Below are positions 2,151-36,719 of a stretch of 43,315 nt of DNA, in pieces. The translations under genes were made by a program, and so were the position numbers. Below the pieces are notes generated by a model. It searched no databases. It was given only the letters and a program-made list of their open reading frames with translations, and was not told the origin of the DNA. Source of the DNA: Phyllobacteriaceae bacterium (GTDB taxonomy: Bacteria > Pseudomonadota > Alphaproteobacteria > Rhizobiales > Devosiaceae); contig JAAZLP010000073.1 in NCBI GenBank assembly GCA_012799265.1, positions 1 through 43,315 on the forward strand. The letters run 5' to 3'. Numbering within the stretch: the stretch's first letter is position 1; every line of letters starts with the position of its first letter.

Positions 2151-4007
2151 ATGACACTTCCAAAGCTTTCAACGCTGGCCATCGCAGGCCTCCTAGCGCT
2201 GGGCCTTGCAGCCCCCGCGCAGGCCCAGACACCAAGCGGGGTGTGGAGCAATTCCTTCCAGCTCGAAGGCGAGCCGAAATATGGGCCCGATTATACCCAT
2301 TTCGACTACGTCAATGTCGATGCACCCAAAGGCGGAACCGTGCGGCTGGGGAGCCTTGGCGGTTTCGATACGTTCAACCCTATCCTGCCAAAGGGCGAGG
2401 TCGCGGACGGCATTGGGCTTCTCTTCGAAACCCTCCTCACCCCATCGCTCGATGAAGTGGGCACCTATTATGGCCACCTCGCCAAGGAGCTGATGGTCGC
2501 GCCCGACAATAGCGCGGTGACCTTCCGGCTTGATCCTGATGCACGCTGGCACGATGGCGAGCCGGTCACCGCCGAGGACGTCGTTTGGACCTTCAACGAA
2601 CTGATCGAGGTGAACCCGGACCGGGCCCAGTACTACGCAGATATCACATCGGTCGAAGTGACCGCGCCGGGTGAGGTTACCTTCTCCTTCAAAGGCACGG
2701 ACAACCGCGAGCTGCCGCTGATTCTGGGCCAGTTGCTTGTGTTGCCGCAGCATTGGTGGGAAGGCACCGACGCCAATGGCAAGCAACGCAATATCGGCGA
2801 ATCCACGCTGGAGCCGCCTCTCGGCTCGGGCCCCTATAAGCTCGCAAGCTTCGATGCTGGCCGCACCATCACCTATGAACGCGTGCCCGACTATTGGGGC
2901 GTCAACCACCCGACCCAGGGGGGTCAGAACAATTTCGATACCTACAAGATCGAATTCTTCCTCGACCTGACGGTGCAGTTTGAAGCCTTCAAGGGCGACC
3001 AGTTCGACTGGTGGAGTGAAAACCAGGCCCGCCGCTGGGCGACAGCCTATGACTTCCCGGCCGTTACTGAAGGCCGCGTCATCCAGGAACTGTTCCCACA
3101 AGACTACAATGGCTCGGGCATCATGGTCGGCTTCGTCATGAACCTGCGCCGCGACAAGTTCGCTGACCCGCTGGTGCGCGAGGCGCTCAACTATGCCTTC
3201 GACTTCGAAGAGCTGAGCAACACGCTTTTTTATGGCCAGTATGAGCGCATCGACAGCTTCTTCTTTGGTCTGCCGTTCAAGTCCTCTGGCCTGCCGGAAG
3301 GCGAGGAGCTGGACATCCTCGAAAGCGTGCGGGACCTTGTTCCCGAAAAGGTCTTTACCACGCCCTATACCAATCCGGTGAGCGGCGATCCGGGCAAGCT
3401 ACGCGCCAATCTGCGGACCGCCATGCAGCTCTTCAACGAGGCAGGCTACACGCTTGAGGGCAACCAGATGGTCGGCCCGGATGGTCAGCCCTTCACCTTT
3501 GAAATCCTGCTCAATGGCCCGACCATCGAGCCGGTGGCGCAAAACCTTGTGACCAACCTTGCCCAGATCGGCGTTGCGGCCACCATCCGCACCGTGGATA
3601 GCCCGCAATTCATCAACCGCGCCCGCAGCTTTGATTATGACATGATCTATTCGGGCTGGGCGCAGTCCTTCACGCCGGGCAATGAGCAGCGCTTCTTCTT
3701 TGCCAGCTCGACCGCTAATCAGGAAGGCGCGCAGAATTATTCGGGTCTCGCCGATCCGGGGGTCGATGCGCTCATTGAAAAGCTGATTGTGGCTGATGAT
3801 CGCGAAACGCAGGAAGCGGCCACCAAAGCGCTCGATCGCGTCCTGCTGGCACACCACATCATCATCCCGAGCTATTCGCTGCGCACCACCCGCTCAGCCC
3901 GCTGGGACCGTTTCAGCCGTCCTGACGAACTGCCGGAGTTTTCATCAGGTTTCCCGACGCTCTGGTGGTGGGATGAAGAAAAAGCGGCCAAGACTGGAGG
4001 CCTCTGA
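2151..4007 (+). CDS. Family 5 extracellular solute-binding protein, YejA-like
   Basis: Signal peptide ending AQA. YejA-type motifs GEPKY..DYTHFDYVNVDAPKGG, FDTFNP, PLGSGPY and REALNYAFDFE. RBS GAGGGAG. Confidence 0.88.
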   Translation: MTLPKLSTLAIAGLLALGLAAPAQAQTPSGVWSNSFQLEGEPKYGPDYTHFDYVNVDAPKGGTVRLGSLGGFDTFNPILPKGEVADGIGLLFETLLTPSLDEVGTYYGHLAKELMVAPDNSAVTFRLDPDARWHDGEPVTAEDVVWTFNELIEVNPDRAQYYADITSVEVTAPGEVTFSFKGTDNRELPLILGQLLVLPQHWWEGTDANGKQRNIGESTLEPPLGSGPYKLASFDAGRTITYERVPDYWGVNHPTQGGQNNFDTYKIEFFLDLTVQFEAFKGDQFDWWSENQARRWATAYDFPAVTEGRVIQELFPQDYNGSGIMVGFVMNLRRDKFADPLVREALNYAFDFEELSNTLFYGQYERIDSFFFGLPFKSSGLPEGEELDILESVRDLVPEKVFTTPYTNPVSGDPGKLRANLRTAMQLFNEAGYTLEGNQMVGPDGQPFTFEILLNGPTIEPVAQNLVTNLAQIGVAATIRTVDSPQFINRARSFDYDMIYSGWAQSFTPGNEQRFFFASSTANQEGAQNYSGLADPGVDALIEKLIVADDRETQEAATKALDRVLLAHHIIIPSYSLRTTRSARWDRFSRPDELPEFSSGFPTLWWWDEEKAAKTGGL

Positions 4008-4012
4008 CAAAC

Positions 4013-4040
4013 AAAGGGCGGCTTACGGGCCGCCCTTTTT
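4013..4040. terminator. Bidirectional intrinsic terminator
   Basis: AAAGGGCGGC-ttacgg-GCCGCCCTTTTT, a perfect 10-bp stem between convergent genes. Confidence 0.85.
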
Positions 4041-4065
4041 GCATCCGAAGCAACGGGATATCCTG

Positions 4066-7000
4066 CTAGTAATCCCGCTCGAAGAACACACCCAGGCTCG
4101 TATCGCCATTCTGGCCCGCCGTGCCTTTGACGGTCAGATCATCGGTAACATCGAGATTGATCGTCACCTTGGACTGGCCGTTCGCGCCAGCGGTGACACC
4201 CAGATAGATGTTTTCCTGCAGATAAGTCCCAGCCTGGACGCCGACATTGCCGGCATCATCGGTGACGATATCAAGATCGGCCAGACCTGCTGCACCGCGA
4301 AGGCTGTCAACCAGCCCGCCACCGCCGCCACCACCGACCAGTTCGGCTGCAGCCGCTGCGAGCTGTGCCAGCTGGATAGGCGAAAGCTCGCCCATGGAGC
4401 GCTTGAAGATGAGGCGGCTCAGCACTTCATCCTGCGGCAGCGCCGGGTTGGACGAGAAGGTGATGTCCGGCGCCGAAGCTCGGCCCGCAAGCGTGACGAA
4501 GACGGTGATTCCATCGCCGTCAGTGCGCGCGACAAAGTTGAGCTGCGGATCAAGGTCACCCATCAGGGTCACCGAACCGGTCTCGAAGGTGATGCGCTGA
4601 CCGAGGATCGAAAGGCGACCACGATTGAGCTGGAAGCCGCCGACCGGCTGGATATTGCTGATCGGACCAGTGAGACGGACAGAGCCGCCCACTTCCGCGT
4701 CAAGCCCACGGCCACGAATGAAGATCTGGTTGGGGGCGTTGACCGTGACATCGAGGTTAAGCGTCGACGACGAAGCCCCCGTGCTGGTGGTGCGCTCGTC
4801 GATCCGGGCACGATCCAATGTGCGCTGTACGTCTGCCGGTGTGGCGCGGTGCTTCACATCGATCAGCGCTGCCGCGCCGCCGAGGCTTTCCGGTACGGTG
4901 ATATTGGCGTTCTCGACAAAGAGATTGCCAGAAAGCAGCGAGGTCGTACCCAGGTTGCCGGTGAGCCCGAGATTGCCCGACACGGTCGCAACGATAAGGC
5001 TGCCATCGGCATAACGCGCGGAATTGAGCGCGAGGGTGAGATTGGCCGGGAAGCCGCCCGTGAGGCCAACGGTGCCGGAACCGGAAATGGTACCGCCAGT
5101 GGCCAGGCTCGCGCTCAGGCTTTCAACATTGGCTGTCGTGCCGTTGAGCGAGACGCGACCGGCAATGTCGGTCAACCGCAGATTGAGTTCGGGATCCACA
5201 TAGCCTGCGCCGGAAGTCGATACGGAGCCGCCGAATTGCGGACTGGTAAGACTGCCAGTGACGCGGGCGTCGAGATTGGCTGTGCCCGAAAGCTGGCCAC
5301 CGCGGTCAATAAGGAAGCGGTTGCCCAAGGCCAGGGGCGCAGAACCGGTGAGCGAGACAGACACGCCCGGGCCGGAAAGAGGAATGGTGCCGGAACCGGA
5401 GACCGCCAGGCCGCCACTGCCATTGGCTGAAAGGCTCGAAAGGGTCACCACATTGCCGGCATAGATACCGTTGGCGGCGAGCGAGAGCGGCGTAATGCCG
5501 AATTCGGCGATGGCGCTCGCACTGATGCCGGCGGCTTGGGCGTCAAAGGCGACGCGCGGATCGGAGGCCGAACCGGAGATCGTTGCGCGGCCGTTGACAG
5601 TGCCAGCCAGACCGAGATTGGGCACAATGGTATTGGCGATGGACAGCGGCAGGTCTGCAATATCGACGACCATATTGAGCGCATTGCCTGCGGTGCCCGT
5701 GGCCGTGATACTGCCGGAGCCGACATTGAAGCGGACCGCATCGAGCGCCACGCTATCGCCGCTGACCACCAGCGCGGTCGGATTCGCCAAGTTCGCCGAA
5801 AGCTGCCCCTGCACCAAGTTGGCGCGGTCAAGATCAAGGCGGAAACCATTGTCGAGCGGGCTCAGCGAACCGGCCACTTCGACCTTGGTGCCGATATTGA
5901 GCCCAGCGCGGGCCTCGAAATTCGTGGTTGTGCCAGAATTGGTGGCCCGCGCTTCTACGTTGTCGACCAGAAGACCGCTCGCAACAATCTTGCTGGCATT
6001 GGCCCGGCCATCAACAACGGGAACGCCGAAGAGATCGGCGATGCCCGCCGAAATATCGGCTTCGCCGACGCTGATGTCGTTGACCACTAGGCGTGAGGCT
6101 TTGGCAGAAACGGAAGCCGCCTGCTTGCCGTCCTGCGGCTGTAGCTGAACAGAGCCGTTGACCGAGCCTGAGGCATCCATCAGCGCCAGAGCTGCCGCCA
6201 GGGAAATATCCGGCGCTGCCACATCAAGACGACCATTGAGAAGCCCCGTCTCGACTGCACGAGTCACTGCACCTGTGATGCGTGTGCCGGCGATGTCAAA
6301 GGCCAGATCGCGCAGCGACTGCTGGGTGTCGTTGCTGGCAAAATGGCTCTTGAGAGAGGCCGCGTGGCCGCCAACCATGGCGGTGCCGCTGACGTCGCCG
6401 TCGAGCACACCAGAGAGCAGCGTCGCCGCCACGCCGAGCTTGGCGTCGCGCAGCGCATAGTCTCCCAATTGACCCTGTGGCACCTGGCCATCGAGCACCA
6501 GAACCAAGGGTTCTTCCGGGGCACTTGAGCGGGCAGAGCCACGCACGGTCAGCGCGCCGCTGGCTTCGGGAGAAATCAGGCCGAGATCAGCTAGATCGAG
6601 GGCGATGGTGAAATCGGACGTTTCGCTCGCAAAGCTGCCATCGGCGCCGAACTGCACCTGCGCATTGGCGAGACGGAAATCTTGGGCGGTAATACCGGCC
6701 TCAGTGCGGGCAAGACGGCCAGTCAGCTTCACCGCGCCTTCAAGCAGCGCGTCGGCCGTCGGATCATCGACGCGCAGGCTCGTGCCCGTTCCGTCAAAGG
6801 TGAGGTCAAAGCCACCGGAAAGCGGCATGATCTTGCCTTCAGCAGCAAGGCTGAGCGCGCCGCCCAACTGACGACCGGCCAGTCCGGAGAACGGTGAGAT
6901 ATTGGCTGTATCGAGCTGGATACGACCGTCGAAATCGGTGCCATCGATCAGGCCAGCGACGCTGGCCGTAAGCGCCTCGCCAACAATGCGCAGCTGCGCC

Positions 7001-16786: not shown

Positions 16787-16810
16787 AGGGGCGCCTCGGC
16801 GCCCCTTCTC
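16787..16810. terminator. Hairpin, likely terminator between convergent fabV and epmB
   Basis: AGGGGCGC-ctcg-GCGCCCCT followed by TCTC (weak U tract). Confidence 0.6.
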
Positions 16811-17840
16811 ATTTAGGCGGATAGGCGTGTTCGCCGCCCTGCCAATCGCGCACAGTGAAATACCCATCGGTGCCGTTGAGAGAGGCCACCCGAATGTCGG
16901 CTTTGCCGTAGCCGCCCGGAATGTCGAGCACATATGTCGGCTGGCAAAGCCCGGAAATTCGTCCCCGCAGCGCCGCTACCAATGCCTGCCCCTCCTCAAT
17001 GCTCACCCGGAAATGGCTCGTGCCGGGTGCGAGATCGGGGTGATGCAGGTAGTAGGGTCGGATGCGGTTCTCGACGAAGCCGCGCATGAGTGCCGCGAGC
17101 GTTTCGACATTGTCATTGACGCCCTTGAGCAGCACCGTCTGGCTGATCAGCATGACACCGCCGTCGATGAGCCGGTCAAAGGCGTCTCTTGCTGCGCCCG
17201 TAAGCTCTCGGGGGTGATTGGCGTGAACGGCGAGATAGGTGGTCTTGCCGCTGGCTTTCAGCGCTTCGACCATGGCCGCGTCGATCCGCTCCGGCTCAAC
17301 CACCGGCACGCGGGTATGGAAGCGGACGACTTTGACATGGTCGATAGAAGCTAGCCGCTCCATGAGGTCGCGCAGGCGTCGCGGCGAGAGGACGAGCGGA
17401 TCGCCACCGGTGAGGATGACTTCCCAGATCTCAGCATGTTCGGCGATATAGCCGACGGCAGCGTCGAGCTCGGCTGATGTCAGCGTGCCGAGCCCCTGCG
17501 GTCCCACCATCTCGCGCCGGAAGCAGAACCGGCAATAGACCGGGCAGACATGCACGGCCTTGAGCAGCACACGGTCGGGATAGCGGTGAACGATGCCTTC
17601 CACCGGCGAATGGGTGAGATCGCCGATAGGATCGGCGCGCTCGTCTAGCGTCGTCGCCAGTTCGGCGGCAGAGGGGACATATTGGCGTGCAATAGGATCG
17701 TTCTGATCGTTGGGATCGATCAGGGACAGGACGGCGGTGGTCAGCGAGATGGCGTATCTTTCTGCCACTTCCTCAAGGCCGGTTGCATCCGCGACGAGAC
17801 CAGCATCAACGAGGCCCGCGATGGACTTGATGGCACTCAT
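16809..17840 (-). CDS. epmB: KamA-family radical SAM lysine 2,3-aminomutase (EF-P beta-lysylation)
   Basis: HRYPDRVLL, CPVYCRFCFRR (CxxxCxxC), ILTGGDPL, QTVLLKGVND and YVLDIPGGYGK. ATGA overlap with epmA at 17837-17840. Confidence 0.88.
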   Translation of the reverse strand: MSAIKSIAGLVDAGLVADATGLEEVAERYAISLTTAVLSLIDPNDQNDPIARQYVPSAAELATTLDERADPIGDLTHSPVEGIVHRYPDRVLLKAVHVCPVYCRFCFRREMVGPQGLGTLTSAELDAAVGYIAEHAEIWEVILTGGDPLVLSPRRLRDLMERLASIDHVKVVRFHTRVPVVEPERIDAAMVEALKASGKTTYLAVHANHPRELTGAARDAFDRLIDGGVMLISQTVLLKGVNDNVETLAALMRGFVENRIRPYYLHHPDLAPGTSHFRVSIEEGQALVAALRGRISGLCQPTYVLDIPGGYGKADIRVASLNGTDGYFTVRDWQGGEHAYPPK

Positions 17841-18895
17841 TCTGCCACCGGTGCCCAAAGAATCGCCTCAAGCCGTTGTGCCCCCGTCGCCAGCATCACC
17901 AAGCGGTCAAAGCCCAGTGCGACACCGCTTGCGTCCGGCATGAAATCCAGCGCCGCGAGGAAGTCTTCGTCTATCGGATAGCGCTCACCATAAAGGCGCG
18001 CCTTTTCCTCCATTTCCGCCTCGAAGCGTCGCCGCTGCTCGGCGGCATCGGTCAGTTCGCCAAAACCATTGGCGAGCTCGACGCCGCAGGCATAGACCTC
18101 GAACCGTTCCGACACACGGCGATCATCTGGTACGCGACGCGCTAGAGCGGCCTCGCAGGCTGGATAGCGATCAAGCACTGTGACGCGGCCATTGCCGAGA
18201 TTGGGTTCAACCCGATCCATCAGAATGAGCGAGAAGAGATAACTCCAACTGCGGTCCTCCGGCACCGACATCCCTTGCGCGAGCATCTGATCTGCAAGCA
18301 TCTCGCCGTCGGGAACACCTTCCTCATTCATTGTCGCTAGCAGGTCGATATCCGCAAACTGGCGGAAGGCGTCAGCAACGCTGACGCGCTCGGCCTCTGC
18401 GCGCGGATCACAGGTCCGGCGTCGGAATTCGAACTGTTTGATACCCGTGGTTTCAGCCGCAAGGCGGATAATGGCGAGTGTGTCGGCGATGATCGCGTCA
18501 TAGGGTTCACCCGCGCGATACCATTCGAGCATGGTGAACTCCGGGTGATGCAGCGCGGATCGTTCGCGATTGCGCCAGACGTGCTGAAGACTGGCGATAC
18601 GCTCTTCGCCTGCGGCCAGCAGCTTTTTCATCGTGAATTCGGGCGAGGTATGAAAGTACATTGCCTGCCCTGCCCCATCGTTGCCAATCATGGTGGTGGC
18701 AAAGGCGTGCAGGTGTGTCTCGTTGCCCGGCGAGCGCTGGAGGCCCGGCGGGTCGACCACGAGGAAGTCCCGCTCGGCCATCCAGAGACGAATTGCTGCG
18801 TCGATCCGGGCACGTGCGAGCAGTCCCTGCCGTAGGTCCGCATGGCGCTCAGGGTGCCACCAAGGCGTCGATCCGGTCATTTCTGGCGTGCTCAT
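17837..18895 (-). CDS. epmA: EF-P lysine aminoacylase (LysRS2 paralog)
   Basis: HTSPEFTMKKLLAAG, HHPEFTMLEWYR, ERFEVY..GVELANGFGELTD and GVALGFDRL. Adjacent to efp. Confidence 0.93.
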   Translation of the reverse strand: MSTPEMTGSTPWWHPERHADLRQGLLARARIDAAIRLWMAERDFLVVDPPGLQRSPGNETHLHAFATTMIGNDGAGQAMYFHTSPEFTMKKLLAAGEERIASLQHVWRNRERSALHHPEFTMLEWYRAGEPYDAIIADTLAIIRLAAETTGIKQFEFRRRTCDPRAEAERVSVADAFRQFADIDLLATMNEEGVPDGEMLADQMLAQGMSVPEDRSWSYLFSLILMDRVEPNLGNGRVTVLDRYPACEAALARRVPDDRRVSERFEVYACGVELANGFGELTDAAEQRRRFEAEMEEKARLYGERYPIDEDFLAALDFMPDASGVALGFDRLVMLATGAQRLEAILWAPVAE

Positions 18896-27613: not shown

Positions 27614-28564
27614 TCAGGCAGAAACTGTTTCGCGGAAGTGCGCCAGAACCTTTTCCGCATCAACGGCGGTGCAGATCGTCTGGTGTGGGCGACCGTTCCA
27701 GGCCGGATCACCGCCCTTGCGCGTTTCGGGCATCTGGGCCGTCTGGCCAACAGCGAGGCCGTCGCGGATGGTAACGATCGGGCCCTTGCGGGTTTCGAAC
27801 CATTCCGGGAACAGCGCATAGGTGACGGCAAGGAGGTCGTGGCCGACCACGCCCGGGAAACCCATGACATTGTTATAGAAGTTGGCATAGTGCTCGCACA
27901 TCTGGCGGAGCAGTTCGCCATTTTCGCCTACATCGCGCGCCAGAGCGGCGAGGTAGTCCTTGTCGAGAAGGATATCGTGCGTCACGTCGAGGCCGACCGC
28001 AACGACTGGCCATTCCGCCGCGAACATTTCGTCCGCAGCAACCGGATCGCCATGGATGTTCGCCTCGGCAAGCGGGGTAACGTTGCCGCTGCGGCCCTTA
28101 TAGCCAAAGGCACCACCCATGATGATGACCTGCTTGACCTTCTTGGCGATGGAAGGATCCTGACGCAGCGCCAGGCCCAGATTGGTCATGCGCCCGACGG
28201 CGATAATGGTGACTTCGCCCGGATGCGCATTGACGGTGTCGATGATGAACTGGTGAGCGGTACCCGCCAGCAGGCCGCTTTCGTCAACAGCCGGAATATC
28301 GATTTCGCCCAGACCGTTGATGCCATGGACGATGGCCGGCTCTTCCTTGTGCACACCATCGAGCGTTTCGCCAGCGCCATGGATAACGGGCGCAGCAATG
28401 CCGAATTTTTCGCGAAGGAACAGCGCATTGCGCGTCGTCGTGTCGATGCTGGCATTACCAACTACGGTGGTGATGCCGAGCAGTTCGATCTGGGGCAGCT
28501 TGCTCAGATAGAGCAACGCCATTGCGTCATCGATGCCTGGATCGGTGTCGAATATAACCTTCAT
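27614..28564 (-). CDS. Nucleoside hydrolase (inosine/uridine-preferring family)
   Basis: Ca-binding motif DTDPGIDDA, plus VHGINGLG, IMGGAF, AEANIHGDP, GLDVT and HD. Confidence 0.92.
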   Translation of the reverse strand: MKVIFDTDPGIDDAMALLYLSKLPQIELLGITTVVGNASIDTTTRNALFLREKFGIAAPVIHGAGETLDGVHKEEPAIVHGINGLGEIDIPAVDESGLLAGTAHQFIIDTVNAHPGEVTIIAVGRMTNLGLALRQDPSIAKKVKQVIIMGGAFGYKGRSGNVTPLAEANIHGDPVAADEMFAAEWPVVAVGLDVTHDILLDKDYLAALARDVGENGELLRQMCEHYANFYNNVMGFPGVVGHDLLAVTYALFPEWFETRKGPIVTIRDGLAVGQTAQMPETRKGGDPAWNGRPHQTICTAVDAEKVLAHFRETVSA

Positions 28565-28606
28565 GGGAATGCCCTATCGCTGTGGTCAGATTGTCATTCG
28601 CAGATT

Positions 28607-28622
28607 TTGACCAAACGGTCAA
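28607..28622. promoter_or_regulatory. RutR-type operator, copy 1 (TTGACCAAACGGTCAA)
   Basis: Perfect TTGACC-N4-GGTCAA palindrome, extending to TTTGACC...GGTCAAA, about 43 bp upstream of the nucleoside hydrolase start. Confidence 0.8.
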
Positions 28623-28698
28623 AGGTCGCGCGGAACCTTCGGTGCGTGTAAGGCGTGTTGCGTGCACCTTGCAAGCATGCTCGGCAGACCCATATTTT

Positions 28699-28715
28699 AG
28701 TTACAAATCGTAACT
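28699..28715. promoter_or_regulatory. Palindromic operator candidate AGTTAC-N5-GTAACT
   Basis: Perfect 6-5-6 inverted repeat immediately before the RBS (GAGGT) of the LLM/FAD-oxidase fusion. Confidence 0.55.
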
Positions 28716-28727
28716 GAGGTACAAAAC

Positions 28728-31004
28728 GTGACTGACTACGGACACGACCTGATCTTCGGCACGTTCTCGACACCCGCCGCTCAGCAGCATGACGCCGTGA
28801 TCGCGCTTGCGCAGCATGCCGAGCAGGTTGGCCTCGACATGGTGACCATCCAGGACCATCCATACAATCCCGGCTTCCTTGATGCCTACACCCTCCTCAC
28901 CTGGATCGCTGCGAGCACAAGCAAGCTTCGCGTATCGGCGAATGTGACGAACCTGCCGCTGCGGTTTGCGCCGGTGCTGGCCAAAATGGCAGCGAGCATC
29001 GACATTCTTTCAGGTGGACGTTTTGAGATGGGGCTTGGGGCTGGTGGCTTTGCCGAGGCCATCAAGTCCATGGGCGGCCCGAGCCTGACAACCGGTGAAA
29101 GCATTGAAGCGGCTAGCGAAGCCATGGATCTTATGCGCGGCATCTGGAGGGGCGACGGCCAGATGTTCAAGCTGCACGGCAAGCACTACGACGTGCCCGG
29201 CGTCCGCTCCGGCCCGCAACCCGCTCATGACATCGGAATATGGTTGGGCGCCTATAAGCCACGCATCCTCCGGTTGACCGGCACGAAGGCAGATGGCTGG
29301 CTGCCTAGCCTCGGCTATCTCAAGCTGGAGGACGTGGCGGAATCGCACCGGATTATCGACGAGGCCGCACTGACTGCTGGCCGTGACCCGCGAGAAATCC
29401 GCCGCCTGCTCAACATTTCCAGCCTGGCTCTTTCGGACACCAATGAAGGCTTCTTGAAGGGCCCTCGCGAGCAGCTGATCAATCAATTGCAGGAGCTCAT
29501 CTTCGAGTATGGCTTTAGCGGCTTCTTCATCAGCGGTGATGACCCGACCATCATGGAAGTGGTGGGGAAGGATATCGCACCGGCAGTTCGTAAGGCAGTG
29601 AGCAAGGCCCGTACCGTCAGTGGGACGGTACCCGCGCCGAGCGCAGCAGATCGGCAGCGACAGGCAGCTCGCCTGCCCGACATAAACTATGAGGCCATCC
29701 CAGACGACCTCAAGGCAAGCGCCGTCGAGCCCGGGGACCGCGACTATGACAATGTCCGTCATTCCTACATTTATGCAGGCAGCCCCGGCCTTGTCCTGAT
29801 GCCGCGCTCAGCAAATAAAGTCTCGGAAGCCGTGCTTTATGCGCGAGCCCAGAACAAGCCGATCGCCGTGCGCAGCGGTGGGCATGGGATTGCAGGGCAT
29901 TCGACCAATGATGGTGGGATCGTCATTGATCTGCGGCACCTCAATCGCATTGAAGTCCTGGACCGAACAAAAAATCTGGTGCGCATTGAAGCTGGTGCAC
30001 GCTGGGGCCAAGTTGCCGAAGAACTTGAGAAGTGCAAGCTGGCGCTTAGCTCGGGTGATTATGGCGGCGTCGGCGTTGGCGGCCTCGCAACAACGGGCGG
30101 CTTGGGTTATTTCGCCCGCAAATACGGCCTGACCATCGACCGCATTCGCGCAGCAGAAATAGTTCTGGTGGACGGTAACATCGTGCGCGCTGATGCGGAC
30201 ACCAATCCCGATCTTTTTTGGGCGATCCGTGGCGCCGGCGCAAACTTTGGCGTCGTCACCTCCTTTGAGTTTGAGGCATACGAGATCGGCAATGTGATCC
30301 GCGCCATCCAGGTGTTTGACCTCAGCGACGCGGAGACATTTCTGGTCAATTGGGGCCGGATCATCAAGGCAGCGCCCCGCGAGCTGACTAGCTTCCTTTC
30401 CGTGTTCTCGAGCCGCAAGGCGCCGATGGCACAAGCCATTTCCGTCTTCGCTGGCGATGACACCGAGGCCGCAACAAAGGCGCTGACACCGCTGCTCGAC
30501 GCCGGTCCGGTCCTGCAGCAGCAGGCGCATATTGCCCCCTACCCTACGCTCGTGCCGTGGCAGGAAGGTCCGCATGGCGGCAGCACAATGGGCGTTAGCC
30601 ATTCAGGATTGATCGAGCACATCACCCCAGAGATTGCCGGACACATCGCTTCGATCGTACGTTCCCGCAGCGCCGAAATGGTGCAGTTGAGGGCGGCCGG
30701 CGGTGCGGTCAACGACATGCCGGCAGACGCGACGGCCTATGCGCATCGGACACAGAATTTTTCACTACTCGCTGCGTCCTACGACAATCCGGCAGCACTC
30801 AACGCGCAGTGGGACCAGCTGAAGCCGCTGCTCAAGGGCATGTACGCGGCTTTTGAAACAGACATGTCGCCAGAAATCCTGCTGGCAGCCTATCCGGAGC
30901 CGACGCTGAGCCGTCTTCGTCAGCTCAAGGCGAAATATGATCCGGACAACGTCTTCAACACCAGTTTCAACATTCTTCCGGCTGCGGATAACGTGGTTGC
31001 CTGA
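28728..31004 (+). CDS. Fusion of an LLM-family oxidoreductase and an FAD-linked oxidase (VAO/berberine-bridge type)
   Basis: N-terminal LLM domain (QDHPY, ASIDILSGGRFEMGLGAG, ADGWLPS). C-terminal FAD-binding domain with RSGGHG, DLFWAIRGAGANFGVVT and the BBE tail RLRQLKAKYDPDNVF. Confidence 0.85.
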   Translation: MTDYGHDLIFGTFSTPAAQQHDAVIALAQHAEQVGLDMVTIQDHPYNPGFLDAYTLLTWIAASTSKLRVSANVTNLPLRFAPVLAKMAASIDILSGGRFEMGLGAGGFAEAIKSMGGPSLTTGESIEAASEAMDLMRGIWRGDGQMFKLHGKHYDVPGVRSGPQPAHDIGIWLGAYKPRILRLTGTKADGWLPSLGYLKLEDVAESHRIIDEAALTAGRDPREIRRLLNISSLALSDTNEGFLKGPREQLINQLQELIFEYGFSGFFISGDDPTIMEVVGKDIAPAVRKAVSKARTVSGTVPAPSAADRQRQAARLPDINYEAIPDDLKASAVEPGDRDYDNVRHSYIYAGSPGLVLMPRSANKVSEAVLYARAQNKPIAVRSGGHGIAGHSTNDGGIVIDLRHLNRIEVLDRTKNLVRIEAGARWGQVAEELEKCKLALSSGDYGGVGVGGLATTGGLGYFARKYGLTIDRIRAAEIVLVDGNIVRADADTNPDLFWAIRGAGANFGVVTSFEFEAYEIGNVIRAIQVFDLSDAETFLVNWGRIIKAAPRELTSFLSVFSSRKAPMAQAISVFAGDDTEAATKALTPLLDAGPVLQQQAHIAPYPTLVPWQEGPHGGSTMGVSHSGLIEHITPEIAGHIASIVRSRSAEMVQLRAAGGAVNDMPADATAYAHRTQNFSLLAASYDNPAALNAQWDQLKPLLKGMYAAFETDMSPEILLAAYPEPTLSRLRQLKAKYDPDNVFNTSFNILPAADNVVA

Positions 31005-31040
31005 GAGGATCGACAAAGACCGCTTGACGAATGTCGGTTT

Positions 31041-31056
31041 TTGACCAAACGATCAA
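31041..31056. promoter_or_regulatory. RutR-type operator, copy 2 (TTGACCAAACGATCAA)
   Basis: 15/16 identical to copy 1. Lies 24 bp upstream of fgd and downstream of a TTGACG -35-like hexamer (31024-31029), so it overlaps the expected -10 region. Confidence 0.78.
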
Positions 31057-31080
31057 ATATTCGCAGTCCGGGAGGGGTCC

Positions 31081-32082
31081 ATGCGCTTTGGCTTTAAGGC
31101 ATCCGCCGAACAGTTCGGCCCCAACGAACTGCTGAAGTTCGCCGTCGAGGCAGAGGACGCCGGGTTCGACTCGGTGTTCGTATCGGACCATTTCCAACCG
31201 TGGAAGCACACGGATGGTCATGCGCCGTTTGCGCCGGGCTGGATGTCTGCCGTGCTGGCGCGCACCGAACGCGTCATTCTTGGCACCTCGGTGCTGACGC
31301 CCACCTTTCGCCTCCACCCCACAGTTGTGGCTCATGCCTTCGGTACAATGGGTGCCATGTTCCCCGGGCGCGTCATTCTGGGCGTGGGTACAGGCGAGAG
31401 CCTCAACGAAGTGCCGGCCACGGGCATGGAATGGCCGGAGCTGAAAGAGCGTTCAGCGCGGCTGCGCGAAGCCGTCAAACTCATCCGCCAGCTGTGGTCC
31501 GAAGACCGGGTGACCTTCGAGGGCGAGTATTACAAGACATCCAACGCAACGATCTATGACAAGCCGGCTGAGCCTGTGCCGATCTATATCGCTGCCGGTG
31601 GACCGTTGAATGCCAAATATGCCGGACGCGCGGGCGATGGGTTTATCTGCACCTCCGGCAAGGGCGCTGATCTATACACCAAGGAACTGCTGCCCAATGT
31701 CGAGATCGGACGCTCCGAGAGCGACCGGCAGGAAAAACGCTTCGAACGCATGATCGAAGTGAAGGTGTCATTCGACACGGACTATGATCGCGCGCTCAAT
31801 GACACGCGCAACTGGGCAGCGCTCTCGCTTTCTGCTGAAGAAAAGCACTCCGTGCAGGACCCGGAGGAAATGGAACGCCTGGCCGAGGCTTTGCCCATTG
31901 AGCGAGTGGCCAAACGCTGGATCGTCTCTTCCGACCCGGATGAGCATGTGGCGGCGATCAAGACCTATATGGATTATGGCTTCGACCATCTGGTTTTCCA
32001 CGCGCCAGGGACCGACCAACCGCGCTTCCTCAACCTCTATTCTCGCGAAATCCTGCCGCGCCTGCGCAAGATCACCGGCTAA
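31081..32082 (+). CDS. fgd: F420-dependent glucose-6-phosphate dehydrogenase
   Basis: [58 protein letters not shown] and HLVFHAPG closely follow mycobacterial FGD1. Confidence 0.9.
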
Positions 32083-32100
32083 TTCTGGGAGCCTCGGACT

Positions 32101-32913
32101 ATGACACCGCGCTTTTCTGTCTGGGGCATTACCGGCATTCCGGAAGTTGAGAAGGGCGACGACCTCGTTGCACTGATCGCTGAGGCAGCATTTGCGCAAG
32201 CGCAAGCTGAACCCGAATTCGCCTTGCAGAATGGCGACATTCTCGTGGTGACCTCCAAGATCGTCTCGAAGTCCGAAGGCATGCAAGTGCCGGCTGCGGA
32301 ACGCGAGCGCGCCATTGCCGAGGACACCGTTCGTGTCGTTGCGGAACGCGTTCACCCCGGGGGGGTGTTCCGAATTGTCGAGACGCGTCAGGGCCTCGTC
32401 ATGGCGGCTGCAGGGATTGACATGTCGAACGTCCCAGAGGGAACTGCGCTGCGGCTGCCACTCGATCCGGACGCTTCTGCTCGGGCGCTTTGCGCAGGTC
32501 TGCGGGAGATGCTGGGCATCGAGATTGGCGTAATCATCACAGACACAATCGGCCGGGCATGGAGAGTTGGGCAGACGGACATGGCCATCGGCGCCGCTGG
32601 TCTGCAACTCACGGATGATCTTCGAGGCGCTGTGGATGCCAATGGCCGGCCTTTGCATGTCACCCAGGCCGTGATCGCCGATGAAATCGCCGGCGCCGCT
32701 GACCTGGTCAAAGGCAAGACGAGTAAAATTCCAGTGGCCGTTGTCCGCGGCCTTGGCCGCTATGTCCGTGACCTGGGTGCGCCTGGAGCACGGACGCTGA
32801 CACGCACCGGCGATGATGACATGTTCCGCTTCGGCAGCGCAGAGGCTTATCGGATTGGCTATGAAGCTGCACTGGCAGAAATGAAAAACAAGCAGCGGCA
32901 GGATCAGGACTGA
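32101..32913 (+). CDS. cofE: Coenzyme F420-0:L-glutamate ligase (single-domain CofE)
   Basis: [76 protein letters not shown] and PVAVVRG. No FbiB nitroreductase domain. Confidence 0.92.
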
Positions 32914-32915
32914 CC

Positions 32916-33839
32916 ATGCGCTTTCTCGCCTCTCTGGCCCTTGTCGTCGCGCTCGCAATGCCTGCCTCGGCAGAAACGACTTATCCCCTTGCGATCGATA
33001 ACTGCGGACAGACCGTCACGATTTCTTCTGCACCACATCGTGTGGTGGCAATCAAATCGACAGCGACGGAACTGCTTCTCTCCCTTGGCTTGAGGGACAG
33101 GATTGTCGGCGTGGGCTTTCAGGACGGCCCGCTGCCGCCGGCGCTAGAAACAGAGCTACCCATTCTCTCTGACAAACTGCCGAGCCAGGAAGTGGTACTC
33201 GAGACCGAACCTGACCTCGTCTATGGTGGCTGGGAGAGTAATTTCTCTGGCGCCGGCGCCGGTGAGCGGCCGACGCTGCAACACATGGGCGTCGCAACCT
33301 ATGTCGCGCCTTCAGCCTGTCGCTCAGTTAAACCGCCGAGCCTGACGACTGACGCTCTCTTCGCGGAAATGCGTGAGATCGGCGCCATCTTTGACGTCGG
33401 GGTAAACGCGGAAGCGCTCGTCGGAGAACAACAGGCTCTCCTCGCCAGTGTGACACCCGATAGCCGCGGCCTGAGCGCTGTGTGGTATTCCTCGGCAACC
33501 AAGACGCCTTATGTCGGCGCGGGCAACAATGCCCCGGCGCTGATCATGCACGCTCTTGGATTGCAAAACATCTTTGGCGACATCGATGAAGGATGGACCT
33601 CCACCTCATGGGAGGCGATCGTCGATGCCAATCCTGACGTCATCATTCTCGTCGACGCGACGTGGAACTCCGCAGAGCAGAAAAAGCAGCTCCTTGCTGA
33701 AAACCCGATCACGCGTGAGATGGATGCGGTGAAGAACCAGCGCTATCTCACCCTGCCCTTCCCGGCATCGGAAGCGGGAGTCCGGACAATCCCCGCGATA
33801 GTGGACCTAGCCGAACAACTGGCACGGATCCGTTTCTGA
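32916..33839 (+). CDS. Putative F420-0 ABC transporter substrate-binding protein (BtuF/FecB fold)
   Basis: YPLAIDNCG, RVVAIKST, EPDLVYGGWESNFSGAGAGER, TPYVGAG and SWEAIVDANPDVI resemble the recalled F420-0 SBP clade. Starts 2 bp after cofE. Confidence 0.78.
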   Translation: MRFLASLALVVALAMPASAETTYPLAIDNCGQTVTISSAPHRVVAIKSTATELLLSLGLRDRIVGVGFQDGPLPPALETELPILSDKLPSQEVVLETEPDLVYGGWESNFSGAGAGERPTLQHMGVATYVAPSACRSVKPPSLTTDALFAEMREIGAIFDVGVNAEALVGEQQALLASVTPDSRGLSAVWYSSATKTPYVGAGNNAPALIMHALGLQNIFGDIDEGWTSTSWEAIVDANPDVIILVDATWNSAEQKKQLLAENPITREMDAVKNQRYLTLPFPASEAGVRTIPAIVDLAEQLARIRF

Positions 33840-34841
33840 ATGAGACCAGCCAGCCTCTCTGCGCTGACCGTGCTTTTGTTGGCCTCGGCGCTGATTGCGG
33901 TGACACTGGGGCCAGCGGAAATCACAGCTGGCGACGTGTGGTTGACCATCCTCCACCACCTTGGCCTCATGGCTGAACCTTCTCTTTCCCGTCTGCAGGA
34001 TGCCATTGTATGGGAACTGCGCCTGCCGCGCGTTCTCGTTGCCATGGGGGTTGGTGCAGGGCTCGCGCTTGCTGGCGCGGTGATGCAGGCGCTGACCCGC
34101 AATCCCCTGGCAGACCCATACCTCCTGGGTCTCTCGTCCGGCGCAGCACTGGGCGCCGTTATCTTCCTTCTCTTGGGCGCAGTGTTGCTGATGCCATTGG
34201 GCGCGTTTTTCGGCAGCACTGGCGCACTGGCTCTGGCTCTGCTGATCGCGCAACTGCTCGGCGGGGCGACGCCATCGCGCGCTATCCTTGCGGGCATCTG
34301 CATTTCAGCGCTGGCAACAGCGGCGACGTCGTTCCTGATTTTCTGGTCTGCAACAGGGGACAGCTATCGCGAAATTCTGAGCTGGCTGATGGGATCGCTG
34401 GCCGGTTCGCTCTGGTCGGATGTGGGCCTGGTCTTTGCGGCACTTCTGCTCTGCGTGCCGATCATCCTCTTCTTTGGGCGAGCGCTAGACGCCTTTGCCT
34501 TCGGCGACACTTCGGCGGCCGCCTTGGGCATTGATGTGCCACGCCTGCGCTGGACCATGCTGGGCGCTTCGGCGCTACTCACAGGCATCATGGTCGCCGT
34601 AGGGGGCGCCATCGGCTTTGTCGGCCTCGTCGTGCCCCATGTTGTTCGCCTTGCCATAGGCACATCTCATCGGGCCCTTCTGCCCCACGCCATGATGGTC
34701 GGTGCAATCTTCATGCTCTGGGCAGACACGCTGGCCCGAACCCTGTTTGATCCGCGCGAACTGCCGGTGGGAATCATCACCGCGCTCATCGGCGCACCGA
34801 TTTTCCTCCTGGTCCTGCTCCGCTATCGGAGGATCACGTGA
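33840..34841 (+). CDS. Putative F420-0 ABC transporter permease (FecCD/BtuC family)
   Basis: IVWELRLPR, QALTRNPLADPYLLGLSSGA, GAIGFVGL and ELPVGIITALIGAP. Abuts the SBP gene. Confidence 0.82.
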   Translation: MRPASLSALTVLLLASALIAVTLGPAEITAGDVWLTILHHLGLMAEPSLSRLQDAIVWELRLPRVLVAMGVGAGLALAGAVMQALTRNPLADPYLLGLSSGAALGAVIFLLLGAVLLMPLGAFFGSTGALALALLIAQLLGGATPSRAILAGICISALATAATSFLIFWSATGDSYREILSWLMGSLAGSLWSDVGLVFAALLLCVPIILFFGRALDAFAFGDTSAAALGIDVPRLRWTMLGASALLTGIMVAVGGAIGFVGLVVPHVVRLAIGTSHRALLPHAMMVGAIFMLWADTLARTLFDPRELPVGIITALIGAPIFLLVLLRYRRIT

Positions 34842-35605
34842 GCCTCTCGGTTTCAGATGTCTCGGTGACGCGCGGCGGTAAGCCAATTCTATCCAACGTT
34901 GGCTTCACCGCACCGAAAGGGGCCATCACTGGCCTTCTCGGGCCGAACGGCGCTGGAAAGTCCACCCTGCTGCACACGCTGCTCGGCCTGATGCCGACCA
35001 GTGGAAGCGCGGTTTTCGAAAGGGTGGACCTGTTATCGATGCCCAGACGAGAGCGCGCGCGCATGGCGGCATTGGTGGAGCAATCAGTATCAACCGAGGA
35101 ACGCCTCAGCGTGAGGGACGTCGTGGCGCTGGGCCGCATCCCCTATCAGTCAGCTCTCAGCGGAGCAGATGACCCGGCTGGCTCAGAAATAATCAATCAA
35201 GCGCTGGCCGACGTTGGCATGCAGGAGTTTGCAGACCGGCGCATCCAGTCGCTTTCTGGAGGCGAGCAGCAGCGCGTGCACATTGCGCGCGCACTTGCGC
35301 AACAGCCGCGGCTCCTCCTGCTGGATGAGCCGACCAGTCATCTCGACATCCGCGCACAACTCGAACTGACGGCACTACTGCGGCGCAAGGCAGTCAGTGG
35401 CATGACAGTGGTCGTTGCAATCCACGACCTCAACCTGGCGGCCCGCTACTGCGACCATCTTGTGGTGCTGGACCGGGGCCGCCTCTCAGCCGAAGGGGCA
35501 CCAAATCAAGTGCTGACAGCGCGGATGCTGGAAGCTGTTTATGGCGTGCGGGCCCGGCTGCTGGATGACCCGCAATCGGACCGGGCCACCATAGTCTACG
35601 ACTAG
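34838..35605 (+). CDS. Putative F420-0 ABC transporter ATP-binding protein (FecE/BtuD-like)
   Basis: GPNGAGKST, LSGGEQQR, LLLDEPTSHLD and HDLNLAARYCD. GTGA overlap with the permease. Confidence 0.85.
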   Translation: MSLSVSDVSVTRGGKPILSNVGFTAPKGAITGLLGPNGAGKSTLLHTLLGLMPTSGSAVFERVDLLSMPRRERARMAALVEQSVSTEERLSVRDVVALGRIPYQSALSGADDPAGSEIINQALADVGMQEFADRRIQSLSGGEQQRVHIARALAQQPRLLLLDEPTSHLDIRAQLELTALLRRKAVSGMTVVVAIHDLNLAARYCDHLVVLDRGRLSAEGAPNQVLTARMLEAVYGVRARLLDDPQSDRATIVYD

Positions 35606-35639
35606 CCAGCGCCCTGAACTCGTCTTCGGCGAAAGCGGA

Positions 35640-35685
35640 TTGACAAGTCTTCAGTCTCACCCCAAAAATTTGATCGGCTGGTCAA
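35640..35685 (+). promoter_or_regulatory. Sigma70-like promoter with RutR-type operator, copy 3 (TTGATCGGCTGGTCAA at 35670-35685)
   Basis: TTGACA at 35640-35645, an A-rich -10-like element near 35664-35669, then the palindrome TTTGATC-ggct-GGTCAAA over the expected start site. Confidence 0.75.
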
Positions 35686-35717
35686 AAATTCCAGCAACAA
35701 GGGAGCGGTGAGGGACC

Positions 35718-36719
35718 ATGGAATTCGGCATTACCTTCAAGGGTTTTATTGAGGCTGAACGGGCGCGCTATCTGGTACGCGCTGCTGAATATGCCGGGTT
35801 CTCTTATTGCTGGTTCTACGACAGCCATATTCTATGGCGCGACTGCTATGCCGCCATCGCCATGTGCATGGAGCACACCACGGATATGCGGTTCGGCCCG
35901 CTGGTGACTAATCCCGACGTGCGCGACTGGTCAGTGGCGGCATCGATCTTTGGCTCGCTCTCCAAACAGTCCGGCGGTCGCTTCGATCTGGCAGTTGGCC
36001 GCGGCGATAGCTCCATGCGCGTCATGGGCAAGAAGCCGGCAACGCTCAAACGCGTTGCAGAATTCATCGACAAGACCAAGGCAATGGTGCGGGGCAAAGA
36101 AGTCACCTATGGCGAAATTCCAGCTGCAGTAAAATTCCCTTGGGCGGTTGGCCACGACATGCCGAGCTGGATCGCAGCCTATGGCCCACTGGCCCTTAAG
36201 ACCGCGGGCGAGAGCGCTGATGGCGTCGTACTGCAGATCGCCGATCCGGGACTTTGCAAGTGGTTCACCGACCAATGTATTGAAGCCGGCAAGGCTGTTG
36301 GCAAGGATATGAGCAAGTATCGGTCCATGGCCGCTGCCCCTGCCTATTTCGGGGACCGCAAGCGTGCGATCGAGAAGGTGAAGTGGTTCCCCGCAATGGT
36401 CGGCAATCACGTGGCCGATATCGTCGAAAAATATGGTTCGAACAGCGACAAGGTGCCAGCCAGCCTGACCTCTTACATCGAGAAGCGCCGCGGCTATGAT
36501 TATTCAAAGCACGGCCAGGCGGATAACCCCTACCTCGATTTCATCACGGACGATGTGGTGGAAAGCTTCTGCGTGCTGGGTGAACCCGACGAGCACATCA
36601 GCAAGATCCGCGAGCTTGAAGCGGCAGGCGTCACGCAGTTCAACATCTATCTCGACAGCGGCGACGAGGAAGAAATCATCGCCAACTACGGGCGCCACGT
36701 TATTCCGGCGTTCGCCTGA
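35718..36719 (+). CDS. Mer-like F420-dependent LLM oxidoreductase (CPS_4043/TIGR03842-type)
   Basis: AGFSYCWFYDSHILWRD, FGPLVTNP..RDWSVAAS, GRGDSS.RVMGKKP, ADGVVLQIADP, WFPAMVGNHVAD, GYDYSKHG and GVTQFNIYL. Family assignment is from recall. Confidence 0.78.
   Translation: MEFGITFKGFIEAERARYLVRAAEYAGFSYCWFYDSHILWRDCYAAIAMCMEHTTDMRFGPLVTNPDVRDWSVAASIFGSLSKQSGGRFDLAVGRGDSSMRVMGKKPATLKRVAEFIDKTKAMVRGKEVTYGEIPAAVKFPWAVGHDMPSWIAAYGPLALKTAGESADGVVLQIADPGLCKWFTDQCIEAGKAVGKDMSKYRSMAAAPAYFGDRKRAIEKVKWFPAMVGNHVADIVEKYGSNSDKVPASLTSYIEKRRGYDYSKHGQADNPYLDFITDDVVESFCVLGEPDEHISKIRELEAAGVTQFNIYLDSGDEEEIIANYGRHVIPAFA

What the first reader, a model, noticed from the sequence alone, without database searches (positions are those of the whole stretch)
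27614..36719. Candidate new system: F420-scavenging, F420H2-driven pyrimidine/nucleoside catabolic regulon in an alphaproteobacterium
Seen: a nucleoside hydrolase, fgd, cofE, a BtuCDF-type ABC transporter and a Mer-like LLM cluster together, three of their promoters share one 16-bp palindrome, and no cofC/cofD/cofGH/fbiC is in the window. Established: CofE adds the glutamyl tail to F420-0, FGD regenerates F420H2 from G6P, and RutR-type TetR regulators bind TTGACC-N4-GGTCAA and respond to uracil/thymine. Inference: the cell imports F420-0 made by neighbours, matures it, reduces it with G6P, and uses it to reduce pyrimidine bases released by the hydrolase. That would be a cross-fed alternative to NAD(P)H-dependent PreTA/PydXA. 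I am not aware of this being demonstrated.
Basis: partly seen in the sequence, partly recalled or inferred. Interest (0 to 1): 0.93.

Follow-up and report, generated by a model that had tools for sequence, protein, structure and literature searches.

The report
Borrowed-F420 uracil breakdown in Devosia
Devosia bacteria lack the known genes for making the redox cofactor F420, yet carry a gene set under a predicted pyrimidine-sensing switch that likely imports F420 and likely uses it to start uracil and thymine breakdown in place of the usual enzyme, so an everyday nutrient pathway would run on a cofactor made by neighbours.

Summary
Observation confirmed; interpretation largely supported by genomics, untested biochemically. 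This Devosia locus holds fgd, cofE, the TIGR03868/69/73 'putative F420-0' ABC importer and a TIGR03842 Mer-like enzyme, with three RutR-type boxes. The genome (85.8% complete) has the later pyrimidine-breakdown genes beside rutR, but no PreTA and no cofC/D/G/H. In 151 Devosiaceae genomes cofD is never found, importer and TIGR03842 co-occur 64 of 64, and 141 carry exactly one of TIGR03842 or PreA (2 both, 8 neither). All 18 tested carriers outside this cassette type have cofG instead; in one closed genome cofGHDCE, fno and TIGR03842 directly follow the pyd genes. One Devosia has the cassette plus a decayed preTA. Against: 6 of 43 carriers in another set keep PreA, kin are not independent, and the imported F420 form is unknown. 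The importer is an old untested database proposal. The scan proposed both halves before on other DNA (e1-2651888, e1-1478994, e1-6807014, e1-4236325). Not seen in those notes' summary lines: the shared box, the family-wide either/or pattern and the decayed preTA.

The parts
27614..28564 (-). IU-family nucleoside hydrolase; peripheral member sharing the divergent promoter
   Evidence: PF01156 E 3e-79; below RihA/RihB/RihC/UriH cut-offs; ortholog beside the cassette in 12 of 80 loci, each with a box upstream
28607..28622 (.). RutR-type box TTGACCAAACGGTCAA (13 of 14 to the E. coli consensus)
   Evidence: 4th in the genome-wide ranking
28728..31004 (+).
   Evidence: PF00296/PF01565/PF08031; in only 2 of 100 loci screened, L070 and L103, which look like one genome; look-alike clusters mostly Actinomycetota
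31041..31056 (.). RutR-type box TTGACCAAACGATCAA, 24 bases before fgd
   Evidence: a box precedes fgd in 43 of 61 loci, namely all those where fgd leads the operon
31081..32082 (+). fgd, F420-dependent glucose-6-phosphate dehydrogenase (makes F420H2)
   Evidence: TIGR03554 507 over cut-off 420; PDB 5LXE FGD1 478 bits
32101..32913 (+). cofE, F420-0:gamma-glutamyl ligase, without the FbiB reductase domain
   Evidence: TIGR01916 222 over 181; single domain PF01996; 38% identical to the de novo cofE of G060; look-alike clusters mostly Actinomycetota
32916..33839 (+). periplasmic binding protein, putative F420-0 importer (TIGR03868-like)
   Evidence: 390.4 bits, 2 under cut-off; named relatives at 44-55% identity are Micrococcales; PDB 4MLZ E 2e-89
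33840..34841 (+). ABC permease, TIGR03869
   Evidence: 437.9 over 437.35
34838..35605 (+). ABC ATPase, TIGR03873-like
   Evidence: best family, 329.5, under cut-off 372.4
35670..35685 (.). RutR-type box TTGATCGGCTGGTCAA, 32 bases before the LLM
   Evidence: a box precedes the LLM in 67 of 80 loci against 31 of 2400 random windows
35718..36719 (+). TIGR03842 Mer-like F420 oxidoreductase; candidate F420H2-dependent uracil/thymine reductase
   Evidence: 488 over 295; model pLDDT 87.6, best folds are Mer, TM 0.81; either/or with PreA

Best explanation
The cassette is likely a RutR-controlled module that likely imports a ready-made F420 species, is predicted to add its glutamate tail with CofE and reduce it with FGD and glucose-6-phosphate, and likely uses the TIGR03842 enzyme to reduce uracil and thymine to their dihydro forms in place of PreTA. 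PydB, PydC, PydD and PydE, encoded beside rutR on contig C473, would then finish the breakdown and release nitrogen. Shown here: gene families, the boxes, the missing cof and preTA genes, and the distribution patterns. Established for the families: the CofE and FGD reactions, and uracil control of E. coli RutR. Inferred: the cargo (F420-0 is the best guess; about 515 Da would pass porins whereas F420-2 at about 774 Da would not, from recalled values), the LLM's substrate, binding by the Devosia RutR-like protein, and supply by neighbours. The module looks like a mosaic: LLM from F420-making Hyphomicrobiales, importer and cofE of actinobacterial type.
For: (1) G000 has rutR divergent from pydD-pydE-pydC-pydB-ABC, unbroken on C473 and without preTA; no PreA or RutA in the genome. 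(2) Devosiaceae draw of 151: TIGR03842 64, PreA 81, both 2, neither 8; the pattern holds inside three genera (47 vs 10 of 56; 5 vs 29 of 36; 11 vs 6 of 18). (3) G028 has the intact cassette plus preT in three frames and preA lacking residues ~57-234, while its pydB, C, D and E are unbroken. (4) Independent physical links: closed genome G060 has rutR, box, pydC, pydB, ABC, box, cofGHDCE, fno, TIGR03842 in one run; G334 has box-LLM-pydB; L147 has LLM-pydC and L153 pydC-rutR-cof-LLM. (5) The same box type precedes pydD/pydC and preT and matches the E. coli RutR consensus incl. positions 4 and 13. (6) F420 supply always travels with the LLM: a strong importer match in exactly the 64 LLM genomes, cofD in 0 of 151; of 43 carriers, 18 have cofG and the other 25 have importer+cofE. 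(7) An F420-reducing partner is swapped but usually kept: FGD, FNO, or a TIGR03557 enzyme in Pelagibacterium. (8) Nearest solved folds are F420-dependent Mer.
Against: No biochemistry or induction data. PreA is kept in 6 of 43 TIGR03842 carriers (4 of the 18 F420 makers), in G142 and G376 inside the pyd operon, so the LLM is not always a replacement. 8 of 151 have neither enzyme. Devosiaceae LLMs form one clade (95/89), so 64 of 64 partly reflects inheritance of one block. The RutR-like protein scores below the RutR cut-offs (226 of 368; 209 of 230). The genome-wide ranking also puts boxes before a peptide-type binding protein (rank 1) and a P450, and E. coli RutR binds many sites with no measurable effect on transcription. 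Binding protein and ATPase fall under their TIGR cut-offs. G033 has RutA-family genes as another route. L149 has no F420-reducing gene in the cassette. G000 is only 85.8% complete.
Confidence: 0.68

Rival explanations
1. F420 is imported as proposed, but the LLM reduces another RutR-linked base (a modified pyrimidine, or a purine-breakdown intermediate such as yanthine), and PreTA loss only coincides with it or reflects partial overlap.
For: 6 of 43 carriers keep PreA; RutR regulons include purine genes; an F420-type luciferase-family protein is proposed as yanthine reductase in Chloroflexota (PMC12507026 passages).
Against: 141 of 151 either/or with PreA; direct neighbours are pydB and pydC; decayed preTA in G028.
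Confidence: 0.14
2. The LLM is the pyrimidine reductase, but the cell makes its deazaflavin by unrecognised enzymes, or the ABC system carries something else (FO, a flavin, a corrinoid or a siderophore).
For: The binding protein belongs to PF01497, the iron/B12 class; the F420-0 label is a genome-context proposal; FO-5'-phosphate can stand in for F420 (PMC8859854, abstract start only).
Against: Importer and cof genes alternate across 43 carriers; cofE is kept, and FO or its phosphate offers no carboxyl for CofE (established chemistry); the pyd operon has its own NMT1-type transporter; four unrelated cof enzymes would all need unknown stand-ins.
Confidence: 0.13
3. A general F420 salvage island for redox or detoxification; the palindrome belongs to another TetR regulator and the pyrimidine link is incidental.
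For: Ddn-type F420 enzymes in 2 of 5 Devosia tested; top-ranked box before an unrelated binding protein; regulator below the RutR cut-off.
Against: Same box type at pydD, pydC and preT; PreA exclusion; the LLM family sits beside pyd genes in several lineages.
Confidence: 0.05

Closest known systems
Reductive pyrimidine (Pyd) pathway with PreTA/PydXA as first enzyme
   Same: pydB, pydC, pydD, pydE, ABC transporter and RutR-type control are present.
   Different: No PreA/PreT; the first step is assigned to an unrelated luciferase-like barrel that would use F420H2 rather than NAD(P)H or ferredoxin.
Putative F420-0 ABC importer TIGR03868/TIGR03869/TIGR03873 with cofE and fgd (Micrococcales)
   Same: Same three families beside cofE and fgd, no cofC/D/G/H; nearest named binding proteins are from Isoptericola, Microbacteriaceae and Promicromonosporaceae.
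   Different: Gram-negative host, RutR-type boxes and one apparent client enzyme. The proposal has no test in the papers I could search.
TIGR03842 (CPS_4043) family in cofGHDCE-fno/fgd operons of F420-making Proteobacteria
   Same: Same enzyme family; Devosiaceae copies nest among them in the tree; same box in 5 of 10 cofG loci plus G060.
   Different: Biosynthesis genes are replaced by importer + cofE; the family has no assigned reaction.
Mer, methylene-H4MPT reductase (PDB 8QPL, 1Z69)
   Same: Best sequence and fold match, TM 0.81, 26-29% identity; F420H2 hydride transfer to a nitrogen heterocycle.
   Different: Far below the Mer cut-off (125 of 349); different substrate region.

Membership tests
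TIGR03842 F420-dependent LLM | Score over the curated cut-off | tested here: met
   488 vs 295
TIGR03842 F420-dependent LLM | F420 supply in the same genome | tested here: met
   cofG or importer+cofE in 43 of 43; importer in 64 of 64
TIGR03842 F420-dependent LLM | Uses F420H2 rather than FMNH2 in vitro | not testable with these tools
   only fold and context
Dihydropyrimidine dehydrogenase PreA/PydA | DHODH-like FMN/Fe-S subunit (NF006183) with PreT partner | tested here: not met
   no match over cut-off in G000; the LLM is unrelated. It may work like PreTA but is not a member
Dihydropyrimidine dehydrogenase PreA/PydA | Reduces uracil/thymine | not testable with these tools
   inferred
Putative F420-0 ABC importer | Three subunits over the TIGR03868/69/73 cut-offs | tested here: inconclusive
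   permease over; binding protein 2 bits under (61 of its 64 orthologs are over); ATPase under but best family
Putative F420-0 ABC importer | Host has cofE but lacks cofC/D/G/H | tested here: met
Putative F420-0 ABC importer | Binds and transports F420-0 | not testable with these tools
   none
FGD (TIGR03554) | Score over cut-off; SDH, GE, KG, KH and KRW active-site stretches as in solved FGD1 | tested here: met
   residue roles recalled
RutR regulon | Boxes matching TTGACCAnnTGGTCAA with A4 and T13 | tested here: met
   13, 12 and 12 of 14
RutR regulon | Regulator over the RutR cut-off | tested here: not met
   226 of 368 and 209 of 230; RutR is still its best family and it is divergent from pydD, so RutR-like
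RutR regulon | Uracil-released binding and induction | not testable with these tools
   none
Pyrimidine-specific nucleoside hydrolase (RihA/RihB/UriH) | Score over sub-family cut-off | tested here: not met
   126-190 bits vs 382-459; IU family only
Mer | TIGR03555 cut-off | tested here: not met
   125 vs 349

The most novel reading that the evidence does not exclude
Most Devosia and many Pelagibacterium are conditional F420 auxotrophs: they gave up PreTA for a deazaflavin-dependent uracil/thymine reductase and feed it with F420 taken from actinobacteria or archaea. That would make F420 a shared community cofactor like vitamin B12, and TIGR03842 a new, unrelated class of dihydropyrimidine dehydrogenase.
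Probability: 0.6. Interest if true: 0.87.

Novelty: new variant of a known kind. Interest (0 to 1): 0.75.

Why it matters
[quoted passage not shown] This locus offers one simple assay for three open points: what TIGR03842 does, what Proteobacteria use F420 for, and whether F420 is traded between cells. Cultured Devosia strains of both types exist (cassette-type and PreTA-type), so growth on uracil with and without F420 has a built-in control. A proven importer would also let engineers supply F420 to hosts that cannot make it.

Tried and rejected
De novo F420 synthesis elsewhere: not found (in G000; 27, 48, 52, 86 in relatives). PreTA or Rut as the first step in G000: not found; the weak NF006183 hits (E 4e-11 at best) are far under the cut-off. 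Hydrolase and LLM-BBE fusion as core members: rejected on distribution. Strict exclusion of PreA: rejected, 2 of 64 and 6 of 43 keep it. Other F420 clients in G000: no Ddn-type match, PPOX-type matches all under cut-off. A wider pyrimidine regulon from exact or 1-mismatch boxes: of 38 sites, 15 contigs were read and none of these gave a clear pyrimidine gene. The cofG row (0 of 10) is an artefact of my over-long query start; one search shows boxes before cofG in 5 of those 10. Expression: contigs of 4 RNA runs from 2 studies cover parts of the locus, but contigs cannot show transcription or levels and may be DNA, so this is not used. Literature: searches gave no paper on F420-dependent uracil reduction or F420 uptake. 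Three papers were not held, and subscription journals are not searched. No complex prediction was run.
Full report
Observation. The window is contig C410 of a 3.19-Mb assembly, 85.8% complete. Its LLM is 94-97% identical to Devosia proteins. NCBIfam places them as fgd (TIGR03554, over cut-off), cofE (TIGR01916, over), a three-part ABC system whose best families are the 'putative F420-0' models TIGR03868, TIGR03869 and TIGR03873 (only the permease over its cut-off), and a TIGR03842 enzyme (488 vs 295). The palindrome occurs with 0, 1 and 1 mismatches at 28607, 31041 and 35670, each shortly before a start codon; 0 of 100 shuffles gave as many matches.

The box. The E. coli RutR consensus is TTGACCAnnTGGTCAA, with positions 4 and 13 most important, and uracil releases RutR (PMC2475637, passages). 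The three sites match 13, 12 and 12 of 14 and keep both key positions. In 80 related loci a site with at most one mismatch lies within 150 bases of the LLM start in 67 and of fgd in 43 of 61, against 0 of 60, 0 of 61 and 0 of 64 for the three transporter genes, 1 of 62 for cofE and 31 of 2400 random windows. The 18 fgd genes without a site are internal: 10 follow the LLM, which has the site, and 8 lie in F420-maker loci. The same type of box sits at the pydD-rutR junction and before preT. A matrix from six such sites of other loci (pyd, preT, cofG and one LLM promoter) ranks the window sites 4th, 10th and 12th in the genome. It also ranks first a site before a peptide-type binding protein, and another before a P450, which I cannot explain. 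The published RutR regulon table lists pydXABC but no F420 gene (PMC5343134, passages and supplement part 15).

F420 supply. G000 has no cofC, cofD, cofG, cofH or fno. Because it is incomplete, relatives were tested: cofD in 0 of 151 Devosiaceae genomes (the family name is from the labels), cofC in 0 of 5 closed Devosia. A strong match to the binding-protein model (387 bits or more) occurs in exactly the 64 genomes with TIGR03842; 8 others hold only a weaker paralog of 234-262 bits. In a second, partly overlapping set of 43 TIGR03842 carriers, 18 have cofG and 25 do not; those 25 have cofE and the importer next to the LLM. So the enzyme always has either synthesis or the importer. The F420-reducing partner varies: FGD, FNO, or a TIGR03557 enzyme in Pelagibacterium; L149 has none in the cassette. 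CofE adds glutamates to F420-0 and extends the tail (PMC8498797, passages), so the cargo must already carry the phospholactyl arm. F420-0 is the best guess, but a short F420-n fits too. The wording of the original TIGRFAM proposal is recalled; the tools show only the family names.

The client enzyme. Contig C473 carries rutR divergent from pydD, pydE, pydC, pydB and an ABC transporter, with no preTA, and neither PreA nor RutA is found in G000. In the 151-genome draw TIGR03842 is in 64, PreA in 81, both in 2 and neither in 8, and the either/or pattern holds separately in three genera. G028 has the intact cassette and, behind an intact box, a preT in three frames and a preA with large deletions, while its pydB, C, D and E are whole. 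Frameshifts alone could be sequencing errors, as they seem to be in G020 and G030; the deletion is harder to explain that way. In closed genome G060 one run of genes reads pydC, pydB, transporter, cofG, cofH, cofD, cofC, cofE, fno, TIGR03842, with boxes before pydC and cofG. G334 has box, LLM, pydB. The model (pLDDT 87.6) is closest to F420-dependent Mer (TM 0.81).

Results against. PreA is intact in 6 of the 43 carriers; two of these appear to be the same two genomes counted as 'both' above. In G142 and G376 preTA sits in the pyd operon while the cof-LLM operon lies elsewhere, which leaves room for a different or overlapping substrate. In a tree of 50 LLMs (49 loci chosen from those held, plus the window) the 29 cassette-type rows form one clade (95/89) among F420-making Hyphomicrobiales, so co-occurrence counts are not independent; no phylogeny-aware test was run. 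The regulator is under the RutR cut-offs. The hydrolase ortholog flanks only 12 of 80 loci, though unrelated hydrolase paralogs lie near several others.

Origin. The named relatives of the binding protein among ten representatives looked up are all Micrococcales (4 clusters named, 6 unnamed), and cofE resembles mostly actinobacterial clusters while sharing 38% with the de novo cofE of G060. A mosaic of an alphaproteobacterial LLM with an actinobacterial-type importer is likely; direction of transfer was not tested.

What is known. The pathway is the reductive Pyd route with a different first enzyme. The importer is a long-standing untested annotation. Ten literature searches (listings only) found no report of F420-dependent uracil reduction or F420 uptake. 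PMC12507026 (passages) proposes an F420-type enzyme for yanthine reduction; PMC7332683 has no mention of F420 (word search). Three likely relevant papers were not held, so a prior mention there cannot be excluded. Earlier notes of this scan proposed the reductase idea and the Devosia salvage idea separately; I saw only their summary lines, had stated both ideas before reading them, and tested them here.

Verdict. Real, conserved and well supported by genomics: a new variant of a known pathway, with about 0.8 for the reductase role, about 0.8 for import of some F420 species, and 0.68 for the whole. Interest 0.75.

Noticed in passing
window 28728-31004: LLM + FAD-binding + BBE fusion of unknown function, of a mostly actinobacterial family, inserted between two boxes in very few Devosia; it may be a second F420 user.
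   Followed up: partly
L163 (G028:C39) 3035-4938: Decayed preTA behind an intact RutR-type box in a genome that has the F420 cassette; a possible snapshot of enzyme displacement.
   Followed up: yes
L136 3039-4064; L131 3230-4297: In Pelagibacterium and one Devosia fgd is replaced by a TIGR03557-family enzyme (33% to fgd), a candidate F420-reducing dehydrogenase of unknown substrate.
   Followed up: partly
L005 5156-5171 (G000:C224): Perfect box TTGACCAATTGGTCAA before a DppA/Opp-type binding protein; top-ranked site in the genome, cargo unknown.
   Followed up: partly
L004 1365-2662 (G000:C210): One-mismatch box just before a cytochrome P450; conservation not tested.
   Followed up: no
G033:C1 4016028-4019411: Three tandem RutA-family genes over the cut-off in a Devosia that also has the cassette.
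   Followed up: no
G004:C1 1958111-1958461; G010:C1 3930481-3930834: Ddn-type deazaflavin-dependent nitroreductases in Devosia that cannot make F420; extra users of imported cofactor.
   Followed up: no
G463:C1 1637693-1638556 and similar: A weaker TIGR03868 paralog (234-270 bits) in several Devosiaceae, also in genomes without the cassette; cargo unknown.
   Followed up: no
L175 8633-9334 (G008); L176 9362-10147 (G021): Distant PreA-like genes (31-34%) near another ABC transporter; possibly a separate heterocycle reductase.
   Followed up: no
L002 29-347 and L003 17-335 (G000:C84, C98): Pairs of box-like palindromes about 300 bases apart at two contig ends, probably the ends of a repeated element.
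   Followed up: no
window 16809-18895: Adjacent epmA and lysine-aminomutase-like genes (EF-P modification); ordinary.
   Followed up: no
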